DNA from: a virus
Lineage: Duplodnaviria > Caudoviricetes
IMG/VR virus record: IMGVR_UViG_3300020470_000012
Coordinates: 1-53,434 of that record
Strand: one strand, 5' to 3'
DNA: 53,434 nucleotides
Of the stretch, positions 31,152-48,317 are shown piece by piece. A model generated the notes under the pieces. The model was not told the origin of the DNA. It made no database searches and saw nothing but the letters and a program-made list of their open reading frames with translations. The translations under genes and the position numbers were made by a program. The first letter of the stretch is position 1. Every line of letters starts with the position of its first letter.

Positions 31152-34100
31152 ATGCCACAGAGTACCAATTTAAATGTAACTCCTTATTATGACGATTTTC
31201 AGTCATCAAAGGATTTCTACAGAGTTCTTTTTAGACCTGGATATTCAATTCAATCACGAGAACTAACCACATTACAATCTGTTTTACAGAATCAGGTTGA
31301 AAGTGTAGGTAAGTATCTTATGAAAGAGGGATCGATGGTGGTTCCTGGTGAAATTTCATTCAATAATCAATACAGTTATATAAAGATCTCTAGTTATTCT
31401 CAGGGATTTACACTTTCTCAGTTTCTTGGAGCAACTCTAACGGGTCAAACAACGGGGGTTATTGCCAAAGTTCTCAATGTAACTGATGAAACTTCTTCTG
31501 ATGCTGTAACATTTTTTGTTAGATATGAAAGTAGTGGTACTTCAACTACAAATAGAAGGTTTCAAGAAGGTGAAATAGTTTCGACTGATATCGTAGGATC
31601 TCCTACAGCAGTTATTGGTATTACTGGATCTACAAGACCAACTGTATATAAACCATATGGTGCTGGTGCAGATGTTAGTTTAGAGCAAAGTCCTGCAACT
31701 GGATATGGTTCAGCAGTATTTGTGCAAGAAGGTATATATTATATTAATGGTCATTTTGTAAGAAATTCGGCTCAGACACTTGTTGTTGATAAGTATACCT
31801 CTACCCCAAGTGCTAGAGTTGGTTTTCTTGTTCAGGAAGATTTGATAACTCCTGATGAAGATGAATCTCTAAATGATAATGCATCTGGATTTAGTAATTA
31901 CGCTGCTCCTGGTGCTCATAGACTAAAAATTACACTAACATTAGCATCAAGAAATATTGGTGAAGCAGTAGAAAATAATTTTATTGAATTGCTTCGTATT
32001 AAGGATGGACAAATTGAAAGAAAGGTTGAGAAGCAATCTTGGTCAGATATAGAAGAAATTCTTGCTCGTAGGACTTATGATGAGTCTGGGGATTATGTTG
32101 TTAAGAATTATAATCTAGAAATAAAAAATCATAAAGATGATAGAACAAATAATGGTGTATATCCATTAGGAACAGATGGTTTATATAATAAATTAACATC
32201 TGAAGAATCAGATGATAAAATTGTTGCTGCATTATCTCCAGGTAAAGCATATGTACGTGGTTATGAAATTGAAAACATAGGAACAAAATATAAGACATTT
32301 GATAGAGCTAGAGAGACTCTAACAAGAGAAAGAGCTTCAATTAGTATACCTGTAGGTTCTTCCTTGAACATACAGAATGTTCTTGGTTCTCCAGAAGTTG
32401 ATTCATTACAAGCTCATAGTACAAGTGCTCATAGTCAAGTAAAACTTTATAATAGATTTATCGATTCTTACTTAGGAAATACAAAATCAAATCGTGGTGA
32501 ACCTCCTGCTGTAAGATATCTACTTCATTTAGAGAACTTAGATGCTCAAAATCAATATAATTGGAATCCTACTAGTGGTGCTCCTGCTGCGGTAGAAACT
32601 AGGAATCAGAATGGTGGACCTTCTAGAGCAACTATAATTCCTGGAAGTGCTGTTAAATTAGATGCAACTGCACCTGTAGGAACATTACAAAATGGTTCTG
32701 CAACTAGTAATATTTGTGATGAATGGTTGATGGTAGTATCACTGGATAGTGGTCAAGAAAGAATGGATTCAGGTCTCAATATTGAAGACGTGAATTCTGG
32801 TGGTGTTGCAAGTGGTACAGCAAGATCTATTCTTAGAGGTGTTTATGAATTGAACACTAAACCAGTAGGAGTTGCTACTCCAAAGTTTATAAAGAATGTT
32901 TCTTCTGTTACAGATTCTTTTGGAAGGTTAGCTTCTGGTGCAAATAGAGATTCTATATTCCAGTTAGGTATATTTGATACATCAACATTTGTTTCTATAA
33001 AAGTACATAGTAATAAAACTCATGGTAAGTACACTTCTGGTGTAAAGACTGAAGGTGCTCGTATTACTGGTATGAGTAGTGGTGCTCAGGGTGTTGTTGA
33101 AGGATCTTATTCTGGAGATGGTTATGATGAAATTCTTCTTTCAAATGTAAAAGGAAAATTTGTTAGTGGTGAAAATATTGTAACTGATCCTGATAATAGT
33201 GTTAGTAGTGCTGGTAGAGTATCTACAGCAACTATTATAACAGATGGATCTATCAGAAAAATACATGTTGTAGATTCTGGAACAAGTTATTCTACTGTAG
33301 GTAATAATCCAACATCAACTCATGAACTTGCTGTTGGAATTGGATTATATCGGGATGGTAGTGATTGGTATAATGGACATGCTATAAAATTTAATAGAGA
33401 TGTTGGTAGTGTAATTTATCCATATAAGTGTACTCCTAATACTGATGGTGGTCTTCAGGCAATAGAAATTGATAATGGAGGAGCCACAGGTGATATATTC
33501 CCTAATGAATGGTCTTACTTATCACCAAAACCAAAAACATTTGGTAGCGTACCTACCGCAATGATATTGAGTGATGGTGTTGCGGCTACATTGAAAGTTG
33601 AATTGTGGAATGATTGTATCAATACTTATACTATGAAGGATGTAAAATCTGTTTCTGATTTTGCAAATACTTTTAATTTTACAGCAGATGTAATTACAGA
33701 TAATTCAGGTTTTTATAACTTTACAGAAGTTGGTCAAGCTACTGGTGTATCTGGAAATGACTATTTTGAACTTGCAAGTATTACAGTTGATCCAACAAGA
33801 TTACTCAAGGAAGATGATCTAATTAAGATTATTTCTGATAAAGGTAAAGAATTTAGATATATTGTAAAGTATGCTCATAGATCATCTTCCACCACACCTG
33901 GAAGAGTATATATTCATGGTCCTCTAATTGAAGGTGCAACAAATGCTCAAGTAGTTAAAGTTGAGGCAAAAATTAATGATGGAAATCGCAACTCGTTGAT
34001 ATTCAAATGCCCTGATCCAGTTGTAAAAACTGTTGCTAAAGATCCAACTAAGAGTGGATTTATGCTGAAGTGTGTAAAGAATTTTGCTAGTACAGTTAGT

Positions 34101-37100
34101 GCTGGAAATACTTTAACATTCAATTTACAAGGAGAAAATAAGGATTTTGGTGGATTCTCTACTGCGAATTATATTGCCGTAGTAAAAGAAAAAGGTACTA
34201 GTGGTATAGATGTTGGTGACGTATTGAATCTATCTTCATATGAATTTTCAAGAACTTTAGCTACTCCATCCGTAAACTCTCAAGTTACATGGTCAGGTCT
34301 TCCTGATGAATGGAAAGGTGCAACTATAAAGGTTCAGGCTCCTGTAATAATTAGAAATGCTCAACCAAGATCAAAAATTCTAAAGAATGCTCAGTTGCCA
34401 GTTTCAACTTTTAGAACTGATGATATAATCAATCTAAAGAAAACTGATGGATTTAGAATAAATGGAGTCTATATGTCTGGTGATCCAGATGCACTTGCTT
34501 CTGTAAATGATATTGATATTCAAGATAGATTCCTATTTGATAATGGTCAAAGAGATAATTTCTATGATATAGCGAGACTTATTAGAAAGGCTGGTACAGA
34601 AGAACCTTCTGGTCAATTACTAGTAGATTTTGATTATTTTGATCATCAGAATGATGGACATTTCTTCTCAGTTGATTCGTATATCAATGCATCAAACTTG
34701 ACACTGAATTATGGAGATGTTCCAACATACTTATCTGAAAGAGAAGGTCTACTGTCTCTTAGAGATTGTGTTGATTTTAGATTATCACCTAATGATGAAG
34801 CTCTAGGTCAAATTGCTGGTGCAGAGGATCAGAATGAGACAGGTGCTCTTTCATATACAGATATTGAAACATTTATGCCGACTCCATCAGAGTCTATTGA
34901 GTTTACGTATGATTTCTATCTACCAAGAAAGGATAGTATATATTTGACTAAGAAAGGTTCCTTTGAAGTTGTACAAGGTGTTCCTTCTATAATACCTCAA
35001 TATCCAAATCCAATTCAGGATTCTATAAGATTATTTGATTTGGATGTACCTGCTTATACATTCAACCCTAAGAGTGTAAAGATTAGATCGTATAATCATA
35101 GACGTTATACGATGAAAGATATTCGTGAACTTGATAGACGTATTGAAACTATGGAGTATTATACTACTCTTAGTTTACTAGAACAAGATACGTTGAATGT
35201 TAATATCAAAGATTCTGTTAGTGGATTGGATCGTTTCAAATCAGGTATTATAGTTGACAATTTTGCTGGACATAATATAGGTGATACATGGTCAACAGAG
35301 TATAAGTGTTCTATTGATATGCAGTCTCAGCAATTGAGACCTCAACATCATACTGATGAAATTCATTTATCTGAAAAATTATCAGATGATGATTCTAGAG
35401 CTTCTAAAGGATATAAAAAGTCAGGTTCTATTGTAACTCTTGATTATTCTGAACAAGAAGTTATTAATAACCCATTTGCTACAGAAACAATAAACCTCAA
35501 TCCATTCTTAGTTTTCCAATATAAAGGAAATTTAAGTATGAATCCTGACATTGATGAATGGAAGGATACCGTATCAAGACCAGATCTTGTTGTAAGAGAT
35601 AATAATCTTTTTGATACCATTGAAAATATGGCAGATGAAAGAGGAGTTCTTGGTACTGTTTGGAATGAGTGGCAAACTTCTTGGAGTGGATCACAAACTC
35701 TTGCATCATCATCTACAACTACAAGTAATAATTCTCTGAATGGTCTAAACACAGGTAACAATACATTTGTTACAGGTATGGAGACAACTGCTACATCTTC
35801 TATTACAGGTAGAACCAGAACTAGAACAAGAACAGGAACCAGAAATACTCTTTCTGGATTCGATACTGTTCGTCAAAATTTTGGAAATCGTGTAATTGGT
35901 GTTGCTTTCCAACCATTTATGAGATCAAGACCTGTTGCTTTCTCAGTAACATCATTGAAACCAAATACAAGAGTCTATGCATTCTTTGAAGGTATTGATG
36001 TAAATGCATGGGTATGCCCAGACTCAGTATATACTGGTAATGCATTAAACTCTCCTAAAGGATTTGGACAACCAATAGTTACAGATGATAATGGTAATGT
36101 AAGCGGTATACTTATTATTCCTAATGGTCATTCTCCAGTTGGAACATTTACTACTGGAGTTGCATCTGAACTTGCTACTAGAGGAATTTCTGGTGATGAG
36201 TTAGATAGAAGAAGAGTATCACAAAGTTCTTCTGATGAAGCATATAACTATCAAAACTTTACAGGAGTATTTGAAGATCTAATTTACGATACTACCAGCA
36301 CACAAAGACAGTTTAGAGTTGGAGAAAGGACTTTTAGATTAACTTCTAGTTCTACTAATAGTCAACTTGAAGATCAGGTTGATACTTTTGCAGAAAAGGA
36401 ATACTTTGCAATGGGTCTTCTTGAGACTACTGAAAGAACTATTACATCTACAAGGGTTCCTACTATTGCCCAAAGATCAGTTAGTGATTCTGATTCAGCA
36501 CAATTTATTGATGGTATTAGAACTACTGTAGATACTAACGTAAATACTCAACAGATATGGTCTGACCCTGTTGCACAAACCTTCTTAATTGAAGGATTCC
36601 CAGATGGTTTGTTCATGTCTAGTTTGGAAGTCTTCTTCAAGACTAAGAGTAAGACTGTACCAGTTACATGTTATTTGACTGAAACTTTGCAGGGAACTCC
36701 TGGTAAGAAAGCAATTCCATTTAGTACAAAAACTATCAATCCAGATACAACATTAAGAGTTGTTAGTGATGCTCCTGTAAACTTTGTTGCTGGTGAAACT
36801 ATTATTGGTATGACTTCTGGGGCTACTGGTACAGTAAAAGATAATCTAAGTATAGAATCAACAACTGCTACAACTAACTTTGGAAATACTGTTTATAGTT
36901 TAGTATTAGATGATCATAATGGCAAAACATTTGTAGAGAATGAAATTCTATCTATCCAAAGATTCCCAGAACCAACTGCGGTAACTAGGATTGCAAGATC
37001 TACTTTTGCTGTCAATAATATTGAATTGTCTCATGGTGGTAGTAATTATACTACTGCAAGTGTTACTATAGGTGCTCCTCAGCAGGTAGGCGGTGTTCAA

Positions 37101-39788
37101 GCAACTGCTATTGCACATATTGATGATGTAACTAAACAAATAATAGATGTTGTTGTAACTAATGCTGGATCTGGATATACATCTGAACCTTCAGTTTCTA
37201 TATCTGGTGATGGTTCAGGAGCACTTGCTCTCACTAAAATAAGAGACGAGTATCCTTCAGTTGATATGGGTGTGTCTGTATCAGAGGATGCAAGTTCTGG
37301 TACTACATTTAAATTTGATGCTCCAGTTTATCTTGAAAATAATAGAGAATATGCGTTTGTTGTAATAACAAATACTATTGATTATAATATGTTTATTTCC
37401 CGATTGGGTGAGAATGAAATTGGATCTACTCAAAGAGTTTCTACTCAGCCATATCTAGGATCTTTATTCAAATCACAGAACTCTACAGTGTGGACTGCTG
37501 ATCAGTTTGAGGATGTTAAATTTACTCTCAATAGAGCAAAGTTTATTACAAATTCAACTGCAACTGTAGAATTCACTAATGATAAACTTAAGAGTGAATT
37601 ATTAGGTAAATCTCCTTTAGATACCAATAAACTTTCTTACAGAGGTCAAACTAACGTTGGTGAAGGAATTTTCACTAGTGCAACTGCACCATTGTCTTAT
37701 GCAGACAATCTATTTGGTGCTAATCCAAGAATTGTTATGGTACATCATAGAGATCATGGTATGACCAATGGCGATTATGTTGTATTGAGAGGTGTTACTG
37801 GTGTTGGATCTACAGATCCTTTAGCAAATGGTATTGCAGTTTCTAAATTGAATTCAGTACATAAAATTAGTAATGTTGGATTAGATACTTATTGTATTGA
37901 AATACCTAAAGATAGTAATAGTGAATATGATCAAGCAACAGAAAGTGGAAGATGTGGTAGTGATTTTATTTGGGCTACTAAGAACAAACAGTTCCAACTT
38001 TTACAACCTCAAATAGGTATTCTTCAGTTTGCAAGTAATGCAGTAAGTCATACAATTACTGCACTAAGATCTTCAGCAGTTGATTATGTCAATAGTAATG
38101 ATTTGACACAACATAGTTTTTCTGTTGTTCCTGGAGAAAATATATTTCTTCAAGATAACTATCAGATTCTTTCTGAGATTAATGAAGTTTATCAAAATAA
38201 AGGTAATAAATCATTGACATATAATGTGACAATGAGTACTTCTAATGATGCAGTATCTCCAGTATTGGATCTTGAAAGAGTCAATCTTTATGCAACATCA
38301 AATAGGATTGATAGACCTACTCAAGATGATGATAGGTTTGGTTATAAAGTTTATAGAATATATCCATATAGCAACACTCCTTCTGGTGGTGGTGAGAGTA
38401 GTTTAGGTCCAATATCTAATAATGGTGATGTATTGAGTGTTGGTCAAAGAATAATCAATATGTATAAGACTGATGCTAATGGTATCAGAGATTACAGTCC
38501 TTCTGCAAATTCAGATCCAAATATAACTGGTACAATAGAAGCAGAAATTGTAGCTGTCAATCAAGATGAAAATTATATTGATGTAAGATATCTAAAACGT
38601 CCAGAGGAAGATTTGAAGAATGGTACTGCAACTGTTCTAACTAAAGGTCAGAGATTTGGTCCAGAAATTGTCGGATCTCCAGCATTGACTCCATTTGCAT
38701 TTGTTGTTTTAGGTGGATCTGATGTATTCTATATTCATACAGATCCAATTAATCGTGGAGGATATCTCTACAACAATGAGGAAGAGAGTGCAATGGGTGC
38801 TCATAGTGCTAAGTATCAAACTAAAGTTGTAACTCTTGAGAATCCTGCTCAAAATCTTGATGTTAGAATAACTGCTAACATGTTTGATAATAAAGATGTT
38901 CAGTTGATGTACAAGATTAAACCAGTCTCTTCTGATAAGAGTATGGGTACTCAATCTTGGCAGTACTTTAATCCTAAGTATACTGCTGCTTCTACGTTGA
39001 AAGACATTGTGGTTGTTGATGGAGGTTCAGGATATTCTACTGCACCTACACTTACAATTACTCCTAATAATGGAGCAACTGCAACTCCAGTTATAGATAC
39101 TTCATCAAATTCAGTAAAAAGTATTTTGATAACTAACAGAGGATCTTCATTTACTGCACCACCAAAAATAACTATTGATGCTTCAACTGGTGGTGGTGGA
39201 TCAGGAATGGCAACACTTAATTTGATATCTGGTGGTAATACATATAACCCTAACAGTGGAACTCTTACATACACTGGTAAATCAGTTATTTACTCTACTG
39301 ATTCTCCAGTGACATTACCAAATGCAGGTAATTCTGGAACGGTAGATGTTACTGTTCTAAATGGAACTGTGACCTCAGTTAGTATCAATGCAGCTGGACA
39401 AGGTTATAGTATAGGTGAAATTCTTACACTTGATCCAAACTTTGATACTGATGGATTGGGTAGTGGATTGAAATTTGAAGTTACTGGTATTAGTACTAGT
39501 AATGCACCTAGTGGTCTAGCAGTTGCAGAGGCTTCTATTTTCCCTGTAGATTTTGATGAAGATCTTAGTGGTCTTTCTGATGATTATGAAAATATTGAAG
39601 TTGATGATGTTGCTGTTTTAGATCCACTTGCAGAGAATCCAGATTCATACAAAGAATATAAATTTACAGTTGAAGATCTACCAGAATTTGATAGATTTGC
39701 AATCAAGATTATTATGAAGCAAAATAGTTCTAGGGGACCTGCGTTTGTTCCTAAGATTGAAGACTTTAGATGTATTGCTACTGCATAA
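31152..39788 (+). CDS. vrlC: VrlC-like (DUF4815-type) large virion structural protein
   Basis: MPQ.TNLNV.PYYDDF, RVLFRPG..IQSRELT, APGAHRLKI, LARRTYDESGDY, RIETMEYYT.LSLLE, RFKSG..VDNF and DPVAQTF motifs. Confidence 0.88.
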   Translation: MPQSTNLNVTPYYDDFQSSKDFYRVLFRPGYSIQSRELTTLQSVLQNQVESVGKYLMKEGSMVVPGEISFNNQYSYIKISSYSQGFTLSQFLGATLTGQTTGVIAKVLNVTDETSSDAVTFFVRYESSGTSTTNRRFQEGEIVSTDIVGSPTAVIGITGSTRPTVYKPYGAGADVSLEQSPATGYGSAVFVQEGIYYINGHFVRNSAQTLVVDKYTSTPSARVGFLVQEDLITPDEDESLNDNASGFSNYAAPGAHRLKITLTLASRNIGEAVENNFIELLRIKDGQIERKVEKQSWSDIEEILARRTYDESGDYVVKNYNLEIKNHKDDRTNNGVYPLGTDGLYNKLTSEESDDKIVAALSPGKAYVRGYEIENIGTKYKTFDRARETLTRERASISIPVGSSLNIQNVLGSPEVDSLQAHSTSAHSQVKLYNRFIDSYLGNTKSNRGEPPAVRYLLHLENLDAQNQYNWNPTSGAPAAVETRNQNGGPSRATIIPGSAVKLDATAPVGTLQNGSATSNICDEWLMVVSLDSGQERMDSGLNIEDVNSGGVASGTARSILRGVYELNTKPVGVATPKFIKNVSSVTDSFGRLASGANRDSIFQLGIFDTSTFVSIKVHSNKTHGKYTSGVKTEGARITGMSSGAQGVVEGSYSGDGYDEILLSNVKGKFVSGENIVTDPDNSVSSAGRVSTATIITDGSIRKIHVVDSGTSYSTVGNNPTSTHELAVGIGLYRDGSDWYNGHAIKFNRDVGSVIYPYKCTPNTDGGLQAIEIDNGGATGDIFPNEWSYLSPKPKTFGSVPTAMILSDGVAATLKVELWNDCINTYTMKDVKSVSDFANTFNFTADVITDNSGFYNFTEVGQATGVSGNDYFELASITVDPTRLLKEDDLIKIISDKGKEFRYIVKYAHRSSSTTPGRVYIHGPLIEGATNAQVVKVEAKINDGNRNSLIFKCPDPVVKTVAKDPTKSGFMLKCVKNFASTVSAGNTLTFNLQGENKDFGGFSTANYIAVVKEKGTSGIDVGDVLNLSSYEFSRTLATPSVNSQVTWSGLPDEWKGATIKVQAPVIIRNAQPRSKILKNAQLPVSTFRTDDIINLKKTDGFRINGVYMSGDPDALASVNDIDIQDRFLFDNGQRDNFYDIARLIRKAGTEEPSGQLLVDFDYFDHQNDGHFFSVDSYINASNLTLNYGDVPTYLSEREGLLSLRDCVDFRLSPNDEALGQIAGAEDQNETGALSYTDIETFMPTPSESIEFTYDFYLPRKDSIYLTKKGSFEVVQGVPSIIPQYPNPIQDSIRLFDLDVPAYTFNPKSVKIRSYNHRRYTMKDIRELDRRIETMEYYTTLSLLEQDTLNVNIKDSVSGLDRFKSGIIVDNFAGHNIGDTWSTEYKCSIDMQSQQLRPQHHTDEIHLSEKLSDDDSRASKGYKKSGSIVTLDYSEQEVINNPFATETINLNPFLVFQYKGNLSMNPDIDEWKDTVSRPDLVVRDNNLFDTIENMADERGVLGTVWNEWQTSWSGSQTLASSSTTTSNNSLNGLNTGNNTFVTGMETTATSSITGRTRTRTRTGTRNTLSGFDTVRQNFGNRVIGVAFQPFMRSRPVAFSVTSLKPNTRVYAFFEGIDVNAWVCPDSVYTGNALNSPKGFGQPIVTDDNGNVSGILIIPNGHSPVGTFTTGVASELATRGISGDELDRRRVSQSSSDEAYNYQNFTGVFEDLIYDTTSTQRQFRVGERTFRLTSSSTNSQLEDQVDTFAEKEYFAMGLLETTERTITSTRVPTIAQRSVSDSDSAQFIDGIRTTVDTNVNTQQIWSDPVAQTFLIEGFPDGLFMSSLEVFFKTKSKTVPVTCYLTETLQGTPGKKAIPFSTKTINPDTTLRVVSDAPVNFVAGETIIGMTSGATGTVKDNLSIESTTATTNFGNTVYSLVLDDHNGKTFVENEILSIQRFPEPTAVTRIARSTFAVNNIELSHGGSNYTTASVTIGAPQQVGGVQATAIAHIDDVTKQIIDVVVTNAGSGYTSEPSVSISGDGSGALALTKIRDEYPSVDMGVSVSEDASSGTTFKFDAPVYLENNREYAFVVITNTIDYNMFISRLGENEIGSTQRVSTQPYLGSLFKSQNSTVWTADQFEDVKFTLNRAKFITNSTATVEFTNDKLKSELLGKSPLDTNKLSYRGQTNVGEGIFTSATAPLSYADNLFGANPRIVMVHHRDHGMTNGDYVVLRGVTGVGSTDPLANGIAVSKLNSVHKISNVGLDTYCIEIPKDSNSEYDQATESGRCGSDFIWATKNKQFQLLQPQIGILQFASNAVSHTITALRSSAVDYVNSNDLTQHSFSVVPGENIFLQDNYQILSEINEVYQNKGNKSLTYNVTMSTSNDAVSPVLDLERVNLYATSNRIDRPTQDDDRFGYKVYRIYPYSNTPSGGGESSLGPISNNGDVLSVGQRIINMYKTDANGIRDYSPSANSDPNITGTIEAEIVAVNQDENYIDVRYLKRPEEDLKNGTATVLTKGQRFGPEIVGSPALTPFAFVVLGGSDVFYIHTDPINRGGYLYNNEEESAMGAHSAKYQTKVVTLENPAQNLDVRITANMFDNKDVQLMYKIKPVSSDKSMGTQSWQYFNPKYTAASTLKDIVVVDGGSGYSTAPTLTITPNNGATATPVIDTSSNSVKSILITNRGSSFTAPPKITIDASTGGGGSGMATLNLISGGNTYNPNSGTLTYTGKSVIYSTDSPVTLPNAGNSGTVDVTVLNGTVTSVSINAAGQGYSIGEILTLDPNFDTDGLGSGLKFEVTGISTSNAPSGLAVAEASIFPVDFDEDLSGLSDDYENIEVDDVAVLDPLAENPDSYKEYKFTVEDLPEFDRFAIKIIMKQNSSRGPAFVPKIEDFRCIATA

Positions 39789-39789
39789 A

Positions 39790-40005
39790 ATGGATTATAG
39801 AATAGAGGGTCGATCTGACCTTTTGAAGGATCCCTCTAAGGGATCTGTAATCAATACAGACAAGACTGCATATCAGAGATACTTGCAGTCTAAAAGTCAG
39901 AATATGAAATTTCAAAATGCGGTAAGCGATATAAATAATCTAAAGGCAGAAGTCTCTGAAATAAAAACGTTACTAACGGAATTCCTTAAGAAGAATGGCA
40001 ACTAA
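39790..40005 (+). CDS. Small coiled-coil protein following VrlC (MDYRIEGRSDLLKDP..GSVINTD...)
   Basis: Track ORF 39745 restarted at ATG 39790, just after the VrlC stop; position recalled as typical. Confidence 0.85.
   Translation: MDYRIEGRSDLLKDPSKGSVINTDKTAYQRYLQSKSQNMKFQNAVSDINNLKAEVSEIKTLLTEFLKKNGN
39930..39937 (+). promoter_or_regulatory. T4 late promoter TATAAATA
   Basis: Exact consensus about 57 nt before the start at 39995. Confidence 0.65.
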
Positions 40006-43000
40006 TAAAGTACTACTAACCAAAGCAGCGTCTAATTCAAAGACCTTACAACAAATTGCCGATGACGTTGTTGCCAAGGTAGCTGGTTCTTCGTTGGTAA
40101 AAATTCTCGTTAGTCAAGATACGATTATATTTGATACCGATAATAGCAGAACCCAAGCACAGTTGAAGACTGGAATTGATGATCTGAATCATGGTAAAAC
40201 GTATCTAGATCATGAAAATTTTAAATTTTTAGGAACCAGATCTACTGTTGTTCCAGGAGTAGGTTCTTCACATTATTGGCATTTAGATGCTATTACTAGA
40301 CTTAATTATCAGGCTGCCAAAGCGGCTGGAAATGTAACGACATATTCTACAAGTAATGAAGGTGATGAAGTAGATATCTATATTTTAGATAGTGGTGTTA
40401 GAGGTGCTAGTAGACCAACAGGAGTTGATGTTGGATTACATCCAGAATTTTATAATCCAGATAATAATACAAACTTAAACGGAACTTCAGAACAAGCAGA
40501 TTATAGGGTATACGAACTTCCATCTGCTTTATATACTTCACCTGCTACTGGTGGATCAAACGAACCACAAAGTACAGGTAGTAATTCATCAGATGGTCAT
40601 GGTACTTATGCTGCTATATGTGCTGCTGGTGTTCGTGCTGGTGTAGCAAACAAAGCAAGAATTTATTCAGTCAGGATCAGTGATGATACTGGTGTTATGT
40701 CTTATAGTAGTATAAGAACTGCATATGATGCTGTCTATAATCATAACGATCCGACTCATGCAAATTACAAAGGAAATACTCTTGATGGTAATACTAGACC
40801 AAGACCTTCTATAGTTAACTGTAGTTTTGGTAGCACACTTCCTAATCCATTAAGTCCTTGGGTTGATAGAAATGAGAGATATGTCGGACAAAACTATACT
40901 TTCAATGTTACTGCAACAGGTAACTCAAACTATACTATTAGTGGAACTGATGCTAATGGAGCAGTATCAGGAGACGACCCAAACATCTTCTGTAAAAAAG
41001 GAGACACCCTAACATTCACAATGAATGCTTCTGGGCATCCTTTCCATATTCAGACTGGTGGAGCTTCATATAATAATAGTTTAGCTGCTGGTGGTGTTAG
41101 TGGTGCTGGTAATGCTGCTAGTGGAGATGTTGTATTTGATACTGCACATGGATGTGTAGGTAAAGCTAGTGGATCATTTATATATGTTTGCCAAAATCAT
41201 GCATCGATGCTTGGAAACATTTATGTAGAGCAATCACCAACTACTAATAATGGTACTAATGAACTATTAGATGATGGTGAACATATGTTGGGAATGCTCA
41301 AGAACGTTACTGTTTGTAGATCTGCTGGTAATGGATTAGATTTTGAGTTGAATGATGTACCTACTGATTATGGTCCTGTCAATACTAAGGTTGTGTATGG
41401 ATCTAGGTCTACTGGTCAAGATTCAAAACTTGATGCAGAAATTACTTTAACAGATAATTATTCTAGAAGAGGAGAACAAGTTGGATATGGAGAAGAAGAT
41501 ACTTCTGATGTTATTACTGTAGGTGCTCTAAAAATTGGATCATCAAATAAACTTGAATTCGCAGACTTTACCAATTATGGTGAAGCAGTTACTGCATATG
41601 CACCAGGACAAGGTATCTATCTTCCATCTTATGATTGGTCATCAGGAACTGTAACCAATGTTGATTATTCTAATGGTAATCATATAACCATCAGTGGAAC
41701 TTCTTTTTCATCTCCAATTGTAGCTGGAATGTCTGCTATCTTCAGACAGATTCATGATGGAGCAGCAGAGGGTAAAGTATGTGCTAAATGGGCAGCAGAA
41801 AGAAGATATCAATTTGCAGATCTTGATGATAGTACTGATATAGCATCAACTCCAGTAGGGGGTTGGTTGAATAATACAGTTGTTAGTGATGGTGCTGCTA
41901 CTACAAACTTCTTCACTGATCATAATACTGAAACTCATTACAGATTCAAGACTAATGCAGGAACTAATAATATTGTAATGCAGTTGACAACTGGGGAATA
42001 TAATATTATAGGTCCATCAGTTGATGATATTTTTGAATTTGAATTTCCTAGAGTAGAAGATTCTCCTAATGCTCCAGATGTGAACTCATTGATGAGAGCA
42101 CAGATGAAGAAGGATACATTTAACCTTGGAGAAAGAAGAGATTATAAATTTACAGTTAGTAATCCAGGTGGAGGAAATAAACTTACTTGGGATAGAATGC
42201 AAAATGGTGTTCCTAATGGAAACCCACAAGCAGGAATACCATTGGAATTAGATAATGGTGTTGTTTATCGTTTTTATCAAACTGATCCAAGTAACTTAAC
42301 TCATCCAATTGACATATCAGATACTTCAGATGGTACTCATGCTGGAGGAAAATCTTTTGTAGATTATGTAGATCAGGTTATTGGTAAGGGTGCTCATGGT
42401 TATAGGATGAACCTTAAATATTATGTTGATCAAGGTGGACTAACTCAAGTTGATAAGACAACATATGATAATTTAGCTGGTTCTGGTCCTGAGTGTTTTA
42501 TTGAATGGATCAACCCAATGGGTAATACACACCCAGATGTAGATTCTTCTGTATATCCAACAGATTGGCATTACTATTGTGTAAACCATCCAGGTATGGG
42601 TTCAGGAATAATTCAATCTACATCTAATAGTGGATTTGGTAATACAACTGAATGTACTATTGGTGGAATAGATATTCAAGAGTTCTGTAGTAAGTGGAGA
42701 AAAGTAACAGCTGTATCTAGTATTGATAAAACAATTACTTTCCAAGCTGATACCACTGCAACTCATACAGAAGAAGGTGGTGGAGGTGGATTCAATAATT
42801 GTCTCGCAGGAGCTGAATATGCCACTGGTGATAAGCCACGTTGGCCAATGCGTTTCACTAAGATTACTGGTACATTCTATGAGAATGATGCTTTCTGGAA
42901 TTGGATCAATAATCATAGTAATGTAGTTAATGGAAATTCATATGCAGGTGGAGCGTTTACTGCTGGTGAATATTGGGCTCGATTAGAAGTAGAAGAAGGA

Positions 43001-46000
43001 GTATCTGATGGTAAGCCAGTTCAGTACTTCCCAGTTCCAAAATCAAGATTTACTCATCAATCAATATCATCAGAATGGGAGAATACACATGCCTATCCTG
43101 ATAATACTTTGTATAATGCAGGTTCACGTTGGGGTCGTGGTAAGTATGATAACGTCCAACATAAATTCGTTCCAGTACCAGAAGAATTTAGTAGAGATCA
43201 TATCTATGATATGATTCCAGTATTCCATCCATATATTGATTTGATTGCTTCTTGGACTACTCCAAGTGGTTTAATCGGAACATTAACGAATGGTACTTCA
43301 GTAAATATAGATTTATCAGTTTCTGCTATTACAACATTTGCTAATGAAACTATAGGAAGTGGACATACACCAGAATATGAATTAGTTTCTGGTGGAGGAA
43401 GAGCTCCTTTCACTTATAGTTCGGGTACTGGTAAGTATACTATAGATGGAACAGGATTGGCGTTGGATCAAACAACTGGAGCATTACAAGGAACTTGTAC
43501 CAATCCAAACAATGATACAACTTATACTCTTCAAGTAAGAGATAAAGTATCTGATCAAGCTATTGATTATAGTTTTACTCTTGTAGGAACTGCTTCTGGA
43601 TCTTCTACAGTTACAATTACTGGAAGTCCTTCTAACGCAACAGGTGATGGTTCATATCCTGTAGATAGTGGAACCGTTACTTATACATGTTCAGCGACAG
43701 ATAGTTTAGGTACAACACTTGAGTATCAATGGAAATACGCAATAAATTCTACACAAGCAAACTTAGGTAATTGGACTAATGTTCCTACTACAGGATCGTT
43801 TGCAGGAGCTGGAGGAGTAAATACAGATACCTTAACCATTCCTGATAATCTATTATTGGATGGTTATCTCTTTAGTTGTGTAGTCAATTCAAGTACTGCT
43901 GCTTCTTCAGAACAAACTGGAAGTGCATCTCTAAGCATAACAGTTACAGTATCATGTACTGCATGGTGGAGTGGTCAAACAAGTCTTTATGCAGCAACTG
44001 AATGTGCAGGAACAAGTGGTACTTGTACACAAGCAGAAGTTGAAATACAAGCAGTTTCTAGTGATGGAGCAACTCTAAATCTTGCACCAGGATATAATTC
44101 AACTCTAACTGGTAATGAAACTGATATCGTTAGTAGAATAGTTGATGGTAATAATTTCTGTTTAGAAGCATTAGGTGGTAATGGTACTAATGGACATCCA
44201 TTATATCGTGTAAAACTTGGATATGGTAGCATTACCTTCAATGATAATAATCAAACAATTAAGATTACTGCTACACACCCAACATTAGGAACAAGTGCTA
44301 CTGCTACTAGTGTAGGTGGTCCATTTACTATAAATCCAAATTATAATGAGAGTCCACCTTCACCTACAACTGCATCGGTACAATCTGGAAATGCTCATTC
44401 ATTTACTGTTTCTTATGGTCATAGTAGTGCAAACTTTGGTGGTGCTGCTGCAACAATTATTTGGAGATATAAGTTAGATGGAGGAGCTGGTTGGGTAACT
44501 GTTGATGGTACTGAATCTTGGTTCTCATCAAGAGATGATTCAACTACTAATAGTTCAACTCTTACAATTGCACCAACAACTACTTTTGATAATTCTATAT
44601 GGCAAGCTACTGCGTATGTTGATACAGCAAGTAGTGGAGTTACAGATACTAAGGATATTGCTAAGTATAGTTCTGTCTTTAGCAATCAGGTAACTCTGAC
44701 AGTACTTGCTGCACCAACAATCAATCTTCAAGCACCTAGTGGTGTTACTCCTGATAATAGTATATCAGTTACCAAAGGTACTCTTTCTGCATCTGAACAC
44801 TTACTAACAATTGTATCAGATGGTTTACCTGACCCTGCTATTCATGGGGCAGATTTTGTAGCTCCAAATGATCTACGAGTTGTAGAGAGAACTCATAGTA
44901 TTATTTACAGAGGTGGTACTAATACTCCATCTCTAACTCCTTGGACTAACAATGCATTAGGTGTATTTGCTAATGGTGTTAGTGTAAGGTATCCATCTGC
45001 AGGAACTGATAAACTTCCTAATGGTGTTGAATCACCTCCTGCAACATTACAGTTCAACGAAGTTCATTTCGCATCATTATATAATGCAGACGCAGCAAGT
45101 GGTTTCTGTGAAACTACTGGTGAATATCATTATCAAACAAGTGCATTCTTATCAGCATGGGCAGGAGATAGTTGGAGAGGAGTTGCTGGTTCAAATGGAT
45201 ATTATAAAAATAGTAATTTTAGTGGAGATAATTTCAGACATTCTGATGGTCACTCTAAGATTGTAGGTATCGCATATGATGGATATCCAATTTATGGTCC
45301 TTTTGGTTATACAACATATAACGATAATACATCTGCAATAAAGAGAGTAACATCTTCATTTGCTCTAAAGGCAAATGACAATCATAGACCTACAAACTGG
45401 AAGTTTACTGATGAGGTTACTTTTACTGACAGTACACCCAATGCGACATTGGTAAATGGAAGTTTCATTGAAGACTATCAGTATAATCCTGGTTCTGGTG
45501 ACTTGGATCAATCTAATGGTAGATATTGTGTAACTCCAGATTATCCAAATGGAACTTATGCATACTTCATGCCCCAAGATGCAGGTAATAATCCACAGTT
45601 TCCATACATTGTTGGTACAGCACTAAGACAGGCATATTACTTACCTGGAACTAATGCTAGTGATCCAGGTGGTACGAATACTCAAGGACCAGGATCTGGT
45701 GGATTTGATATTACCAGTATCTTCTGTAAGGGTATGACAATGGTTGCCGAGACAGGTGGCGATAATACTCGTGAGATTACTGGTGATACTGCGTCAATGC
45801 AATTTGGTTCTGCACCATATACTTATATTTGGCAGAAGAGTAGTGATAATGGAACAACTTGGGTTGATATAAGTGCAGCTGATGCTGGATTCTTCAATGA
45901 GAATAGTGATACACTAACAGTATATGATAAAAATGCAGGTATTGATGATTTACTTGTTAGGATCAAGGTAACAAATAGTTTAAGTGTATATAAGGTTTCT

Positions 46001-48067
46001 GATGCTGTTCCAATTCAATATATTGGATCTACACTTTCTATATCTGCTCAACCACAGTCTGCAAGTATTATATCTGGTCAATCTAATACCTTTACTGTCA
46101 CTGCTGCATCTACAGATGATGTAACTCTTGAATATCAGTGGCAAGAATCTCAGGATAGTGGTACTAGTTGGACTGATCTTCCTGGAGAAACAGCAGCATC
46201 TATGACTAGATCTGGTATCCAGACCGCAGTAGGTGCAAATGGATATGAGTATAGAGTAAAAATAACTTCAACATCTGCAACCAATTCTCCTCTTTATAGT
46301 AGTTCTGCTCTTCTAACAGTAACACAAGGTTCTATCAATATTGATAGTCATCCAGCATCTATAACTAAAGACGAAGGTACTTCTCATTCATTCGATGTTA
46401 GTGTTACTACTAATAGTGGATTAGCAGTAGTATACCAGTGGCAGCAATGGGATGGAAGTGCTTGGCAAAATGTTGGTAGTGATCAAAATACTTTAGACCT
46501 TACTGCTCTTGATTATGCAACTTATAATGGAGCACAGTATCAAGTTGTTTGTACTATTCCTGGATTAGGATCATTAACCAGTAATACTGCTACTCTAACT
46601 ATTGAAAGAACGATTAGTATTGATACTGATCCTGTAGATGTTACAGTCTATGCTACTCAAAATGCTACATTCTCTGTAGTTGCATCTGTTTCTAGTGGAA
46701 CAGCAACTTATCAATGGGAAGAATCTCAAGATGGTGGTACTACTTGGTCTGATCTTGCTGGAGCAACAACTGCTAGTTATACAATTACTTCTGCAGCAAC
46801 ATCTCAAGATGGGTACAAATATAGAGTAAAGGTTGATGTAGCTGGATCAGGTGGTTCTATTACATCTAATTCTGCAACTTTAACTGTTGCTGTTCAACCA
46901 ACACTCATAATTACAGGTCAACCATCAGATGCTTCTGTATATCAACCAGATACTCATTCATTCAATGTAACTGCTTCTGCTTCTGATGGTTCAAGTCTAA
47001 CTTGGCAATGGCAGAAATCTGATGATAATGGAACGAGTTGGCAAGATGTAGCAGGTGCTACTACTAATGGATATACAACTCCAGCAACTTCTACTGCAAC
47101 TGATAATGGAGATCAGTATAGGGTAGTAGTTAGTCATCCTGCTGCAACAAATAGTCCTCTGACTTCTAATGCTGCGGTTCTAACAGTAGTAACTCCAGTT
47201 ATTCAAGTTTCTACTCAACCAGTTAGTGTTTCGACAACTGCTGGTGTACCTACAAACTTTACAGTTGCTGCCAGTGTTACCAGTGGTAAACAAATAGATT
47301 ATCAGTGGCAAGAGTCTGGTGATAATGGAACAACTTGGACTGATATTACTGGTGCTATTGCAGATAATATTTCTATTACTGGTAATGCAACTAATAATAA
47401 TTATAGGTATAGATGTTTATTTGACTCTCTAGGTGCTGCTCAAGTTACATCTCAATCTGCTACTCTAACACTCACATTTATTCAGCAACCAACATTACAA
47501 ACATCCCATATTGATAGTTCAACTAATAAGACATTTGTAAGACAACCTAAGATACAGGGTAGTCTGTTTATAAGTTATCTTGGAAATGGACATTATGCAT
47601 CCTTCTGGAAGATAACTAGGAATACTGATAATGTAGTTGTTTATGATACAAGTACTGATTTATCTGCTGATGGGGATCAAACTAATAAGGTTGAATTGAC
47701 AACTCCTGTATTAGATTGGAATACATCATATACAATTACAGTCAAGTATAAAGATGCAGCAGGATATATAAGTGCTGAAAGTGCAGCAACTTCATTTACA
47801 ACTCCAGTAGCTGATCAACCAACTTTCAATCTACCAATTCCAACTAGTCTACGACCTACTATTACACTAAATACTCCTAGTTATGATACTGTAAATTATA
47901 ACCATACATCGACTGACTGGCAGATATCTGATGATGCACAATTTAGTAATGTGATTTATGAATCAATTGGTGATGTAAATAATAAGACGGAACTTGAAGT
48001 TCCATCTAATGTCGTATTACAATCATCGACTAATTATTATGTAAGAACTCGACTTAATGTAACCTAA
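39995..48067 (+). CDS. Peptidase S8 (subtilisin/proteinase K-like) multidomain protein with cupredoxin-like, YHYH-like, Ig-like and FN3-like modules; likely virion-associated
   Basis: DIYILDSG, DGHGT, SAGN and SGTSFSSP motifs in order; two CxxHxxM motifs; HSKIVGIAYDGYPIYGP; tandem Ig repeats. Confidence 0.88.
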   Translation: MATNKVLLTKAASNSKTLQQIADDVVAKVAGSSLVKILVSQDTIIFDTDNSRTQAQLKTGIDDLNHGKTYLDHENFKFLGTRSTVVPGVGSSHYWHLDAITRLNYQAAKAAGNVTTYSTSNEGDEVDIYILDSGVRGASRPTGVDVGLHPEFYNPDNNTNLNGTSEQADYRVYELPSALYTSPATGGSNEPQSTGSNSSDGHGTYAAICAAGVRAGVANKARIYSVRISDDTGVMSYSSIRTAYDAVYNHNDPTHANYKGNTLDGNTRPRPSIVNCSFGSTLPNPLSPWVDRNERYVGQNYTFNVTATGNSNYTISGTDANGAVSGDDPNIFCKKGDTLTFTMNASGHPFHIQTGGASYNNSLAAGGVSGAGNAASGDVVFDTAHGCVGKASGSFIYVCQNHASMLGNIYVEQSPTTNNGTNELLDDGEHMLGMLKNVTVCRSAGNGLDFELNDVPTDYGPVNTKVVYGSRSTGQDSKLDAEITLTDNYSRRGEQVGYGEEDTSDVITVGALKIGSSNKLEFADFTNYGEAVTAYAPGQGIYLPSYDWSSGTVTNVDYSNGNHITISGTSFSSPIVAGMSAIFRQIHDGAAEGKVCAKWAAERRYQFADLDDSTDIASTPVGGWLNNTVVSDGAATTNFFTDHNTETHYRFKTNAGTNNIVMQLTTGEYNIIGPSVDDIFEFEFPRVEDSPNAPDVNSLMRAQMKKDTFNLGERRDYKFTVSNPGGGNKLTWDRMQNGVPNGNPQAGIPLELDNGVVYRFYQTDPSNLTHPIDISDTSDGTHAGGKSFVDYVDQVIGKGAHGYRMNLKYYVDQGGLTQVDKTTYDNLAGSGPECFIEWINPMGNTHPDVDSSVYPTDWHYYCVNHPGMGSGIIQSTSNSGFGNTTECTIGGIDIQEFCSKWRKVTAVSSIDKTITFQADTTATHTEEGGGGGFNNCLAGAEYATGDKPRWPMRFTKITGTFYENDAFWNWINNHSNVVNGNSYAGGAFTAGEYWARLEVEEGVSDGKPVQYFPVPKSRFTHQSISSEWENTHAYPDNTLYNAGSRWGRGKYDNVQHKFVPVPEEFSRDHIYDMIPVFHPYIDLIASWTTPSGLIGTLTNGTSVNIDLSVSAITTFANETIGSGHTPEYELVSGGGRAPFTYSSGTGKYTIDGTGLALDQTTGALQGTCTNPNNDTTYTLQVRDKVSDQAIDYSFTLVGTASGSSTVTITGSPSNATGDGSYPVDSGTVTYTCSATDSLGTTLEYQWKYAINSTQANLGNWTNVPTTGSFAGAGGVNTDTLTIPDNLLLDGYLFSCVVNSSTAASSEQTGSASLSITVTVSCTAWWSGQTSLYAATECAGTSGTCTQAEVEIQAVSSDGATLNLAPGYNSTLTGNETDIVSRIVDGNNFCLEALGGNGTNGHPLYRVKLGYGSITFNDNNQTIKITATHPTLGTSATATSVGGPFTINPNYNESPPSPTTASVQSGNAHSFTVSYGHSSANFGGAAATIIWRYKLDGGAGWVTVDGTESWFSSRDDSTTNSSTLTIAPTTTFDNSIWQATAYVDTASSGVTDTKDIAKYSSVFSNQVTLTVLAAPTINLQAPSGVTPDNSISVTKGTLSASEHLLTIVSDGLPDPAIHGADFVAPNDLRVVERTHSIIYRGGTNTPSLTPWTNNALGVFANGVSVRYPSAGTDKLPNGVESPPATLQFNEVHFASLYNADAASGFCETTGEYHYQTSAFLSAWAGDSWRGVAGSNGYYKNSNFSGDNFRHSDGHSKIVGIAYDGYPIYGPFGYTTYNDNTSAIKRVTSSFALKANDNHRPTNWKFTDEVTFTDSTPNATLVNGSFIEDYQYNPGSGDLDQSNGRYCVTPDYPNGTYAYFMPQDAGNNPQFPYIVGTALRQAYYLPGTNASDPGGTNTQGPGSGGFDITSIFCKGMTMVAETGGDNTREITGDTASMQFGSAPYTYIWQKSSDNGTTWVDISAADAGFFNENSDTLTVYDKNAGIDDLLVRIKVTNSLSVYKVSDAVPIQYIGSTLSISAQPQSASIISGQSNTFTVTAASTDDVTLEYQWQESQDSGTSWTDLPGETAASMTRSGIQTAVGANGYEYRVKITSTSATNSPLYSSSALLTVTQGSINIDSHPASITKDEGTSHSFDVSVTTNSGLAVVYQWQQWDGSAWQNVGSDQNTLDLTALDYATYNGAQYQVVCTIPGLGSLTSNTATLTIERTISIDTDPVDVTVYATQNATFSVVASVSSGTATYQWEESQDGGTTWSDLAGATTASYTITSAATSQDGYKYRVKVDVAGSGGSITSNSATLTVAVQPTLIITGQPSDASVYQPDTHSFNVTASASDGSSLTWQWQKSDDNGTSWQDVAGATTNGYTTPATSTATDNGDQYRVVVSHPAATNSPLTSNAAVLTVVTPVIQVSTQPVSVSTTAGVPTNFTVAASVTSGKQIDYQWQESGDNGTTWTDITGAIADNISITGNATNNNYRYRCLFDSLGAAQVTSQSATLTLTFIQQPTLQTSHIDSSTNKTFVRQPKIQGSLFISYLGNGHYASFWKITRNTDNVVVYDTSTDLSADGDQTNKVELTTPVLDWNTSYTITVKYKDAAGYISAESAATSFTTPVADQPTFNLPIPTSLRPTITLNTPSYDTVNYNHTSTDWQISDDAQFSNVIYESIGDVNNKTELEVPSNVVLQSSTNYYVRTRLNVT
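46030..47480 (+). repeat. Five tandem ~95-aa Ig-like repeats
   Basis: Pattern I...P......G....F.V.A......YQWQ.S.D.G..W.D..G.....Y(R).....S..A.LT repeats five times. Confidence 0.85.
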
Positions 48068-48068
48068 C

Positions 48069-48317
48069 ATGGCACAATCGTCTTGGGGAACAGCGATATT
48101 TTCGACCCCCACATCACCACACTTATCTACTAAGCCAGTAGTTCTTACTACTGACACCTTCGAAGCTCAAAGAAGAAAGATCAATCAGATCTCAACTAAC
48201 TTGGGTGATGTTGGACAACTTTCTGGTAACTTCTCAAATGTTGTTGCTGCCGTTAATGCCTTCCAGGCTGGTGTTTCAGAAGATGATGTCATTGCACTTA
48301 CAATCGCACTAGGATAA
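48069..48317 (+). CDS. 82-aa adaptor-like structural protein (TDTFEAQRRKINQI; C-terminal IALTIALG)
   Basis: The TF(E)..R.KIN motif is recalled from N-termini of cyanophage whisker/fibre proteins; an AIALG-type C-terminus is recalled as common in marine phage fibre modules. Confidence 0.75.
   Translation: MAQSSWGTAIFSTPTSPHLSTKPVVLTTDTFEAQRRKINQISTNLGDVGQLSGNFSNVVAAVNAFQAGVSEDDVIALTIALG

What the first reader, a model, noticed from the sequence alone, without database searches (positions are those of the whole stretch)
47591..48317. Split FN3-like domain: the last strand of the protease giant is encoded as the N-terminus of the next gene
Seen: the penultimate repeat ends ...YTITVKYKDAAGYISAESAATSFTTP. 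The final repeat stops at ...YYVRTRLNVT* without that strand. The next ORF starts 1 nt later (ACC TAA C ATG) with MAQSSWGTAIFSTP, which matches the missing S-x-W-S-x(3-4)-F-x-T strand; ORF 6671 has the same strand as ESDWSVEWRFRS. A +1 fusion would read TRLNVTNMAQSSWG, in register with VKYKDAAGYISAES. Inference: there are three options. The 82-aa protein may complete the fold in trans (donor-strand complementation as in chaperone-usher pili) and tether the 2690-aa protease to the fibre module. A +1 frameshift may give fused and unfused forms. Or this is a recent or artefactual 1-nt insertion. A late-promoter-like TGTAAATA at 47974-47981 favours separate expression of the small gene.
Basis: partly seen in the sequence, partly recalled or inferred. 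Interest (0 to 1): 0.85.

Follow-up and report, generated by a model that had tools for sequence, protein, structure and literature searches.

The report
Split FN3 domain across two cyanophage genes
In a group of marine T4-like cyanophages a giant protease-bearing structural protein stops one beta-strand short of finishing its last domain, and the missing strand starts the small next gene, so the two proteins probably snap together in the virion.

Summary
The 2690-aa S8-peptidase giant (39995-48067) ends in the F-G loop of its last FN3-like domain. After TAA and one base, an 82-aa gene (48069-48317) opens with MAQSSWGTAIFSTP, which aligns by profile with the G strand of the complete penultimate domain. 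It is not an artefact or a recent indel. The split is present in all 21 loci examined (8 distinct junction sequences), in S-BM3 at 70% nt identity, and in contigs of three independent runs. All 18 giant homologue clusters end at the same point, and no fused form was found. A conserved +1 frameshift is unlikely: the last sense codon varies (ACC/ACT/ACA/ATC/AAA), the spacer varies (C/T/A), the ATG is invariant, and in locus L024 the small ORF lies in the giant's own frame behind the stop. The strand codons are under purifying selection (dN/dS 0.07-0.18). Residues 21-82 belong to a widespread module found as stand-alone 58-73-aa phage proteins and at the N-termini of fibre-like proteins; only this clade carries the 20-aa extension. 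Best reading: two polypeptides joined by donor-strand complementation. Co-folding gave only weak support (0.60; best control 0.01). Counter-evidence: P-HM2-type phages have the same truncated giant with no recognisable donor strand. The TGTAAATA 'promoter' is not conserved.

The parts
39930..39937 (+). TATAAATA, a T4-type late-promoter-like octamer 58 nt upstream of the giant's ATG. No further copy lies between here and the window's end, so the giant and the 82-aa gene are probably co-transcribed (inference).
   Evidence: 4 matches in the window, all on the + strand, at 9529, 29417, 29423 and 39930. The count is not above chance (7.4 expected). That this is the T4 late consensus is recalled, not tested.
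39995..48067 (+). Giant structural-type protein of 2690 aa: N-terminal subtilase (S8) domain, YHYH domain, Ig-like repeats and two C-terminal FN3-like domains.
   Evidence: Pfam Peptidase_S8 on residues 1-620, E 2.1e-17, 63.8 bits against a cut-off of 21.8. YHYH, E 1.5e-32. Ig_3 below cut-off. The last 201 aa match phrog_27200 positions 1635-1829 of 1832.
47540..47806 (+). Penultimate FN3-like domain, complete, with its G strand ...SAESAATSFTTP.
   Evidence: AF2 model: strands 103-106 and 110-113 follow the F strand 89-98. The E-F-G stretch aligns with the FN3 domain of chitinase A1, 1k85, at E 0.062. Foldseek hits are tandem FN3 domains, all weak (E >= 2e-3).
47807..48064 (+). Last FN3-like domain, truncated in the F-G loop; it ends ...YYVRTRLNVT.
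   Evidence: AF2: the last strand is F (193-200 of 201) and nothing follows. hhalign. The same end is found in 18 of 18 homologue clusters, in S-BM3 and in P-HM2.
48065..48068 (+). Stop codon TAA plus a 1-nt spacer (C).
   Evidence: TAA + 1 nt + ATG in 20 of 21 loci, with spacer C, T or A. L024 has TAA TTC AAA ATG, in frame.
48069..48110 (+). Codons 1-14 of the small gene, MAQSSWGTAIFSTP: the proposed donor (G) strand.
   Evidence: hhalign register against ...SAESAATSFTTP. M1, S4, S5, W6, G7, F11, T13 and P14 are invariant in 11 sequences. dN/dS of codons 2-20 is 0.07-0.18. Low confidence when modelled alone: pLDDT < 50 for residues 1-10 and 15-23.
48069..48317 (+). The 82-aa gene (P0002): donor strand, linker and helical module.
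   Evidence: all homologues are 82 aa. An RNA-library contig covers 48085-48330, which shows presence only.
48129..48314 (+). Codons 21-82: a helical module (KPVVLTTDTFEAQRRKINQIS...AVN...IALTIALG) shared with stand-alone 58-73-aa phage proteins and with the N-termini of fibre-like proteins.
   Evidence: Profile search: 28 of 29 hits match only from profile position 21 or later; most of these matches begin at residues 2-9 of the target protein, and 12 of the hits are 58-73 aa. Alignment. L011 (fibre of more than 855 aa) and L027-L029 (about 400 aa) carry it at the N-terminus. phrog_6005 virion structural protein positions 6-32, E 1.4e-4. Helices 31-43, 58-68 and 71-81 at low confidence.
47974..47981 (+). 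It is not conserved and is probably not a promoter.
   Evidence: present in 1 of 10 aligned loci.

Best explanation
The giant S8-peptidase protein and the 82-aa protein are two separate polypeptides. Both are probably made from one late transcript, the small one by initiation at its own conserved ATG next to the giant's stop (translational coupling, inferred).

The giant's last FN3-like domain lacks its seventh (G) strand. The first ~14 residues of the small protein are that strand. They probably insert beside the F strand in trans, as in donor-strand complementation of chaperone-usher pilins. This would lock the giant's C-terminus non-covalently to the small protein.

The rest of the small protein is a helical module that other phages carry as a stand-alone 58-73-aa protein or at the N-terminus of fibre-like proteins. 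It probably provides the site through which the giant is held in the virion, in the baseplate or fibre region to judge by gene order.

Shown: the split, its conservation, the homology of the strand, purifying selection on it, and the module's relatives. Inferred: binding in trans, coupling, and the anchoring role.
For: 1. The strand is homologous and in register. hhalign runs to the last column of both profiles only when the small protein's N-terminus is appended (E 1.4e-4 over 66 columns; E 1.7e-3 over 47 columns).
2. The AF2 model of the last two domains shows strands after F in domain 1 and none in domain 2.
3. The split is present in 21 of 21 loci with 8 distinct junction sequences. All 18 giant homologue clusters of 1696-2867 aa end in the F-G loop. 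All small-protein homologues are 82 aa with M1 invariant.
4. In L024 the small ORF is in the giant's frame behind TAA and two codons, so only 'stop then restart' is common to all loci.
5. dN/dS of the extension is 0.07-0.18, similar to the module at 0.04-0.23.
6. The extension is specific to this clade. All 12 distant small homologues aligned lack it, and only 1 of 29 profile hits covers positions 1-82.
7. Co-folding: median score 0.60 against a best control of 0.01, with a tool verdict of 'weak support'. That mark was reached by 58 of 80 solved complexes and 2 of 110 mismatched pairs, but a pass at 0.60 or under was seen in only 7 of those 80 solved complexes and in both mismatches that passed. 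The runs agree in at least 88% of contacts and the partner's pLDDT is at least 61. Chain 1 has pLDDT 74-82 with the partner and 57-58 with unrelated partners. Because the pair is two halves of a known fold, the pass may reflect likeness to solved FN3 domains.
8. The extension is low-confidence when the small protein is modelled alone.
Against: P-HM2, P-HM1 and MED4-213 have a homologous giant that ends at the same point (...YYVRIRFNINPT*). It is followed directly by the neck gene gp13. P-HM2 has no 82-aa homologue (best E 0.01, motif only) and no ORF with an N-terminal SSWG..F.TP-type motif. The truncated domain can therefore exist without a recognisable donor.

AF2 models the truncated domain with fair confidence on its own (block pLDDT 80-87). 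The co-fold verdict is only 'weak', and no interface was given. There are no protein-level data: no virion proteomics and no structure. The alignments are shallow (10-11 rows, 3 clades).
Confidence: 0.55

Rival explanations
1. Recoding. A fraction of ribosomes bypasses the stop, by a +1 shift at ACC-UAA-C or by readthrough where the frames agree. This would yield a fused 2773-aa protein with a complete last domain and a C-terminal module, alongside the unfused giant, as in SPP1 gp17.1/gp17.1*.
For: Geometry allows it: a +1 joint gives ...NVT-N-MAQSSWG in register. In 20 of 21 loci the small ORF is in the +1 frame exactly 1 nt after the stop. A precedent exists: in SPP1 a +1 shift at CCCUAA adds an FN3-motif extension (PMC6316719, passages read). 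RNA around the junction folds somewhat better than shuffles (z -2.36, 5 of 200 shuffles).
Against: There is no conserved shift site. The last sense codon is ACC, ACT, ACA, ATC or AAA, and the spacer is C, T or A, so the joint residue would be N or K. ACC to CCU re-pairing is poor (my reasoning). In L024 the small ORF is in frame 0, where a +1 shift cannot fuse the two. The ATG is invariant in all 21 loci, and the stop is always TAA. No Shine-Dalgarno-like stimulator was seen upstream by eye. The 9-bp stem shows no covariation above shuffles (164 of 500). Synonymous sites downstream are not conserved (dS 0.64 to saturated).
Confidence: 0.1
2. Relic boundary shift without interaction. The gene boundary moved in an ancestor, and the G-strand-derived extension now serves the small protein's own function or none linked to the giant. 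The giant's last domain works as a six-stranded or partly open domain.
For: P-HM2-type giants keep the same truncated end without any donor. Their last domain is still recognisably conserved: 36% identity to the window's against 52% for the penultimate domain. AF2 is fairly confident in the truncated domain alone.
Against: The residues invariant in the extension (S4, S5, W6, G7, F11, T13, P14) are those at the G-strand motif positions. Purifying selection on it is as strong as on the module. The giant and the 82-aa gene were adjacent in all 21 loci. The co-fold score lies far above the controls.
Confidence: 0.25
3. Sequencing or assembly error, or a recent 1-nt insertion in this one genome.
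For: Only that removing one base would restore a single frame.
Against: The same split is in S-BM3 (70% nt identity), in 5 IMG/VR contigs and in 14 metagenome loci. Contigs of 3 independent DNA runs cover 48060-48071 with no indel or substitution. 17 runs from several studies hold at least half of the stretch's words.
Confidence: 0.01

Closest known systems
Donor-strand complementation/exchange in chaperone-usher pili (also TasA fibres)
   Same: An Ig/FN3-type beta-sandwich lacks its C-terminal G strand. The strand appears to be supplied by the N-terminal extension of another polypeptide, which is disordered on its own.
   Different: The setting is a phage virion protein, not a secreted pilin, and no chaperone or usher was seen. 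The donor sits on a small adaptor encoded by the very next gene, and it derives from the same domain by gene fission rather than being a polymerising subunit. Binding is predicted, not shown. The literature searches (13 papers, listing read; 0 papers) found no phage virion case; subscription journals are not covered.
SPP1 gp17.1/gp17.1* (+1 frameshift at CCCUAA adding an FN3-motif C-terminal extension)
   Same: A phage structural gene ends, and the +1 frame right after its stop encodes FN3-related sequence (PMC6316719, passages read).
   Different: Here there is no slippery CCC-type codon and the shift context is not conserved. The downstream ORF has its own invariant ATG, one locus has it in frame 0, and only one strand rather than a whole domain lies downstream.
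T4-GC_519 giant of Prochlorococcus phages P-HM1, P-HM2 and MED4-213 (phrog_27200)
   Same: Homologous C-terminal pair of FN3-like domains with the same truncated end (about 40-42% identity).
   Different: It is shorter (the PHROG profile is 1832 positions). It is followed by gp13 after the same TAA + 1 nt + ATG junction, and no 82-aa gene or donor-strand motif is found in the genome.
Stand-alone 58-73-aa phage proteins and fibre N-termini with the DTFExWRxKTNxI...AVNE...IALG module
   Same: Residues 21-82 of the small protein align with them end to end. They occupy the same gene-order slot after a VrlC-like giant and a 71-77-aa gene in L026 and L011.
   Different: None of the 12 small homologues aligned has the 20-residue N-terminal extension. 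Their function is unknown. The Atlas lead to PF07880 (T4_gp9_10_N; rank 13, score 0.89, 54% of members) was not confirmed by Pfam (0 of 23).

Membership tests
Donor-strand complementation systems (chaperone-usher type) | Ig/FN3-like acceptor domain that lacks its last (G) strand | tested here: met
   hhalign; AF2 secondary structure; 18 of 18 homologue clusters end in the F-G loop.
Donor-strand complementation systems (chaperone-usher type) | The missing strand is supplied in trans by the N-terminal extension of another polypeptide | tested here: inconclusive
   Sequence register and conservation fit. Co-fold score 0.60 against a best control of 0.01, verdict 'weak support', no interface given. 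No experiment.
Donor-strand complementation systems (chaperone-usher type) | Periplasmic chaperone and outer-membrane usher; polymerising subunits | not tested
   None is expected in a phage virion. Pfam and PHROG scans of the neighbouring ORFs named none. This is therefore 'works like', not membership.
Programmed +1 frameshift at a stop codon (SPP1 gp17.1*, RF2 type) | Conserved slippery P-site codon that can re-pair in the +1 frame (CCC_U, CUU_U) | tested here: not met
   The last sense codon is ACC, ACT, ACA, ATC or AAA across 8 junction types. The SPP1 motif is from PMC6316719; the RF2 motif is recalled.
Programmed +1 frameshift at a stop codon (SPP1 gp17.1*, RF2 type) | The downstream frame is +1 in all relatives | tested here: not met
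   In L024 the small ORF is in frame 0; 20 of 21 loci are +1.
Programmed +1 frameshift at a stop codon (SPP1 gp17.1*, RF2 type) | A fused product is detected | not testable with these tools
   Needs proteomics or a reporter assay.
Fibronectin type III domain (Pfam fn3) | Match to the family profile or a clear fold match | tested here: inconclusive
   No Pfam fn3 hit. Foldseek's best hits are tandem FN3 domains but with E >= 2e-3. Chitinase A1 FN3 domain, E 0.062. Hence 'FN3-like'.
Peptidase_S8 (subtilase), PF00082 | Profile match above the gathering score | tested here: met
   Residues 1-620: 63.8 bits against a cut-off of 21.8, E 2.1e-17. DSG, HGT and GTSFSSP motifs were seen by eye; their meaning is recalled. 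Not listed in the whole-protein scan at E <= 0.01.
T4_gp9_10_N (PF07880) | Profile match of the small protein's module | tested here: not met
   0 of 23 family members match at E <= 1. Only an Atlas feature lead at 0.89.

The most novel reading that the evidence does not exclude
A virion 'snap fastener' written into gene order. An FN3 domain was split by gene fission in its F-G loop, and the split has been kept for a long time. The giant enzyme-bearing fibre is attached to a widely used fibre/baseplate anchor module through donor-strand complementation. The donor would be made by the same ribosome right after it releases the acceptor, giving 1:1 co-translational pairing. This would be donor-strand complementation used as a modular phage assembly principle. 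It would let different distal proteins be swapped onto one anchor, and the P-HM2 arrangement would be a module swap at the same junction.
Probability: 0.4. Interest if true: 0.75.

Novelty: new variant of a known kind. Interest (0 to 1): 0.62.

Why it matters
If the two proteins join by strand insertion, several things follow.

- It would show how the giant, poorly understood structural proteins of marine cyanomyoviruses are fastened into the particle.
- It would be a natural two-gene example of protein fragment complementation kept by selection.
- It would extend donor-strand complementation from bacterial pili and matrix fibres to virus assembly.
- It warns annotators that an 82-aa 'hypothetical protein' and a 'truncated' last domain are two halves of one fold.
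- It gives function to the first part of a widespread family of ~60-aa phage proteins of unknown role.

Tried and rejected
No model of the strand in cis exists, and the co-fold tool gave no contacts.
2. BLASTP of the penultimate domain against last domain + extension: no alignment. Profiles were needed.
3. Search for fused forms. 'longer' search with the small protein (145-2000 aa): none, but a fusion would be about 2773 aa and out of range. Profile search without a length limit: no hit in which the whole 82-position profile, or its extension, lies at the end of a giant-sized protein; only P0006 (82 aa) covers positions 1-82. Region search among proteins of 1479-4708 aa: 18 of 18 clusters unfused.
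4. ORF 6671 as a third copy of the strand: not supported.
5. TGTAAATA as a late promoter: rejected.
6. Long-range 9-bp stem around the junction: pairable in 90% of cells but with no covariation (99 of 500 and 164 of 500 shuffles reach the observed values). Both arms encode conserved residues.
7. Pfam for the small-protein family: no family. PDB by sequence: chance-level hits only.
8. AF2 of the small protein alone: low confidence (pLDDT 56.5), so no fold search was run on it.
9. RNA evidence: one metatranscriptome-library contig covers 48085-48330. This shows presence only and does not show transcription or its extent. The other RNA runs held next to none of the words.
11. Literature: no paper found on this split (passages of PMC3037559 read). 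Its supplementary tables of gene clusters and proteomics could not be seen and may bear on whether the giant is a virion protein.
Full report
**What is there**

The window is a 53-kb viral contig of a T4-like cyanophage. Its nearest named relative is Synechococcus phage S-BM3 (Kyanoviridae), at 70% nucleotide identity over 47000-49000.

ORF 39995..48067 encodes a 2690-aa protein. It has:
- a subtilase domain (Pfam Peptidase_S8 on residues 1-620, E 2.1e-17);
- a YHYH domain;
- Ig-like repeats;
- two C-terminal FN3-like domains.

It stops with TAA at 48065-48067. One base later, ATG 48069 opens an 82-aa ORF that begins MAQSSWGTAIFSTP. The penultimate domain ends YTITVKYKDAAGYISAESAATSFTTP and the last one ends YYVRTRLNVT*.

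**Is the last strand really missing, and is the next gene's N-terminus that strand?**

- BLASTP cannot align the two domains, but profiles can.
- A profile of the complete penultimate domain (10 loci, A7) was compared with a profile of last domain + X at the break + first 14 residues of the small protein (A8). The two align over 66 columns to the final column of both, at E 1.4e-4.
- Against the last domain alone (A4), the alignment ends at the F strand (47 columns, E 1.7e-3).
- An AlphaFold2 model of the last two domains (mean pLDDT 68) has two short strands after the F strand in domain 1. Domain 2 ends with its F strand.
- Fold matches are weak (E >= 2e-3) but are almost all tandem FN3 domains.
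- The E-F-G stretch of domain 1 aligns with the FN3 domain of chitinase A1 (1k85) at E 0.062.
- I call the fold 'FN3-like' because no Pfam fn3 match was obtained.

**Artefact or recent mutation? No.**

- S-BM3 has the same arrangement and an 82-aa gene that is 82% identical.
- I examined 21 loci in total: the window, S-BM3, 5 IMG/VR contigs and 14 metagenome loci. Some are duplicates of one another. All have a stop followed by ATG, with 8 distinct junction sequences.
- The 18 protein clusters homologous to the giant's last 201 residues (1696-2867 aa) all end ...YYVR..N.T(A[IK]).
- Contigs from three independent DNA runs cross 48060-48071 without any difference.

**Frameshift?**

Only one joint is possible in the window, ACC|U|AAC. 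Across loci:
- the last sense codon is ACC, ACT, ACA, ATC or AAA;
- the spacer is C, T or A;
- the stop is always TAA and the ATG is always present.

In L024 the junction is ...AAA TAA TTC AAA ATG, so the small ORF sits in the giant's own frame. A +1 shift therefore cannot be the conserved mechanism. In the known precedent, SPP1 gp17.1*, the shift depends on CCC in CCCUAA (PMC6316719, passages read).

The RNA around the junction folds somewhat better than shuffles (z -2.36). Its 9-bp long-range stem shows no covariation, and both arms encode conserved residues. Low-level recoding cannot be excluded without proteomics.

**The small protein**

- All close homologues are 82 aa.
- Codons 2-20 have dN/dS of 0.07-0.18, similar to the rest of the gene. 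The extension is therefore translated in this frame and constrained.
- A profile search of 1.84 billion representative proteins found one cluster that covers positions 1-82. The other 28 hits match only from profile position 21 or later, most of them at the very N-terminus of the target. Twelve of the hits are stand-alone proteins of 58-73 aa, and others are fibre-like proteins of up to 1280 aa.
- L011 and L027-L029 carry the module at the start of long fibre-like proteins.
- Modelled alone, the small protein has low confidence, with residues 1-10 and 15-23 below pLDDT 50 and three helices at 31-43, 58-68 and 71-81.
- No Pfam family matches. An Atlas lead to T4_gp9_10_N was not confirmed.

**Gene order**

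In L026 and L011 the order is VrlC-like giant, then a 71-77-aa gene, then the module gene. In the window the S8 giant lies between the 71-aa gene (39790-40005) and the module gene. This suggests that the module gene is the old resident of this slot. It also suggests that the G strand moved onto it through a fusion followed by a fission in the F-G loop. This history is inference.

**Expression**

- The only TATAAATA near these genes is at 39930-39937, upstream of the giant. None lies between 39995 and the window's end.
- Genes in this block abut or overlap, for example TAA A ATG at 39786-39792.
- Co-transcription and coupled translation are therefore likely, but they are not shown.

**Binding**

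Co-folding the last domain (A4) with the small protein (A5) gave these results:
- Median score 0.60, best control 0.01, verdict 'weak support'.
- The mark was reached by 58 of 80 solved complexes and 2 of 110 mismatched pairs in the tool's calibration. A pass at 0.60 or under was seen in only 7 of those 80 solved complexes and in both mismatches that passed.
- The runs agree in at least 88% of contacts, and the partner's pLDDT is at least 61.
- The acceptor's pLDDT is 74-82 with the partner and 57-58 with unrelated partners.

Since the pair is two halves of a common fold, the pass may reflect likeness to solved FN3 domains. No interface was reported.

**Counter-evidence**

- P-HM2, P-HM1 and MED4-213 have a homologous giant with the same truncated end. 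It is followed after TAA A ATG by the neck gene gp13.
- P-HM2 has no homologue of the small gene and no ORF that starts with a G-strand-like motif.
- Its last domain is more diverged from the window's than its penultimate one (36% against 52% identity).
- Either the open domain is tolerated there, or another partner fills it.

**Verdict**

This is a real, conserved fission of an FN3-like domain across two adjacent genes. The most likely reading is assembly of two polypeptides by donor-strand complementation, with the small protein acting as an adaptor (confidence about 0.55). A relic boundary shift without interaction gets about 0.25, recoding to a fused form about 0.1, and artefact about 0.01. 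The principle is known from pili. Its use in a phage structural module, encoded as a split gene pair, appears new within the limits of the searches.

Noticed in passing
window 39786-40005; L026 801-1209; L011 2293-2510: A second TAA-A-ATG junction lies between the 2878-aa VrlC-like ORF (31152..39788) and a 71-aa ORF (39790..40005). The same trio of VrlC-like giant, 71-77-aa gene and module gene recurs in unrelated contigs. In the window the S8 giant appears to have been inserted before the module gene.
   Followed up: partly
window 48041-48049 with 48139-48147: A 9-bp long-range inverted repeat (GTAAGAACT / AGTTCTTAC) brackets the stop-start junction. It is pairable in 90% of cells across 10 loci, against 37-59% for slid controls, but shows no covariation above shuffles.
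   Followed up: yes
window 12114-29408: A 5764-aa ORF follows gp25-like and gp6-like genes (these names are my reading of the translations, not a tool result). Its central part is a long array of ~90-aa repeats with a recurring '...FTC..D.NAT.H.YPR..DP...' motif (seen).
   Followed up: no
window 6671-9322: An 883-aa ORF has a very glycine-rich C-terminal third (GGGxGG runs). Its N-terminal region contains 'THIASSWQVSDHQDF', which resembles the C strand of the FN3-like domains. The proposed G strand ESDWSVEWRFRS lies about 130 residues further on. hhalign gave no support.
   Followed up: partly
L003 3595-3601 (P-HM2); also L004, L005: In P-HM2-type phages the truncated giant abuts the neck gene gp13 with the same TAA + 1 nt + ATGGC junction. 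This suggests module exchange by recombination at gene boundaries.
   Followed up: partly
window 48085-48330: A 246-nt contig from a marine metatranscriptome library matches the small gene exactly. This shows presence in an RNA library only.
   Followed up: no
P0018, P0020, P0022: Longer relatives of the module repeat a 'GDLS.L.T..K..LV.AINE' unit many times between the N-terminal DTFE.WR.KTN motif and the C-terminal IALG motif. The ~60-aa proteins therefore look like one-repeat minimal versions of these fibres.
   Followed up: no
window 39995-48067: The whole-protein Pfam scan listed only YHYH, yet the N-terminal 620 residues alone match Peptidase_S8 well above the cut-off. The subtilase domain has a large insertion: the best stretch covers only 436-588.
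   Followed up: partly
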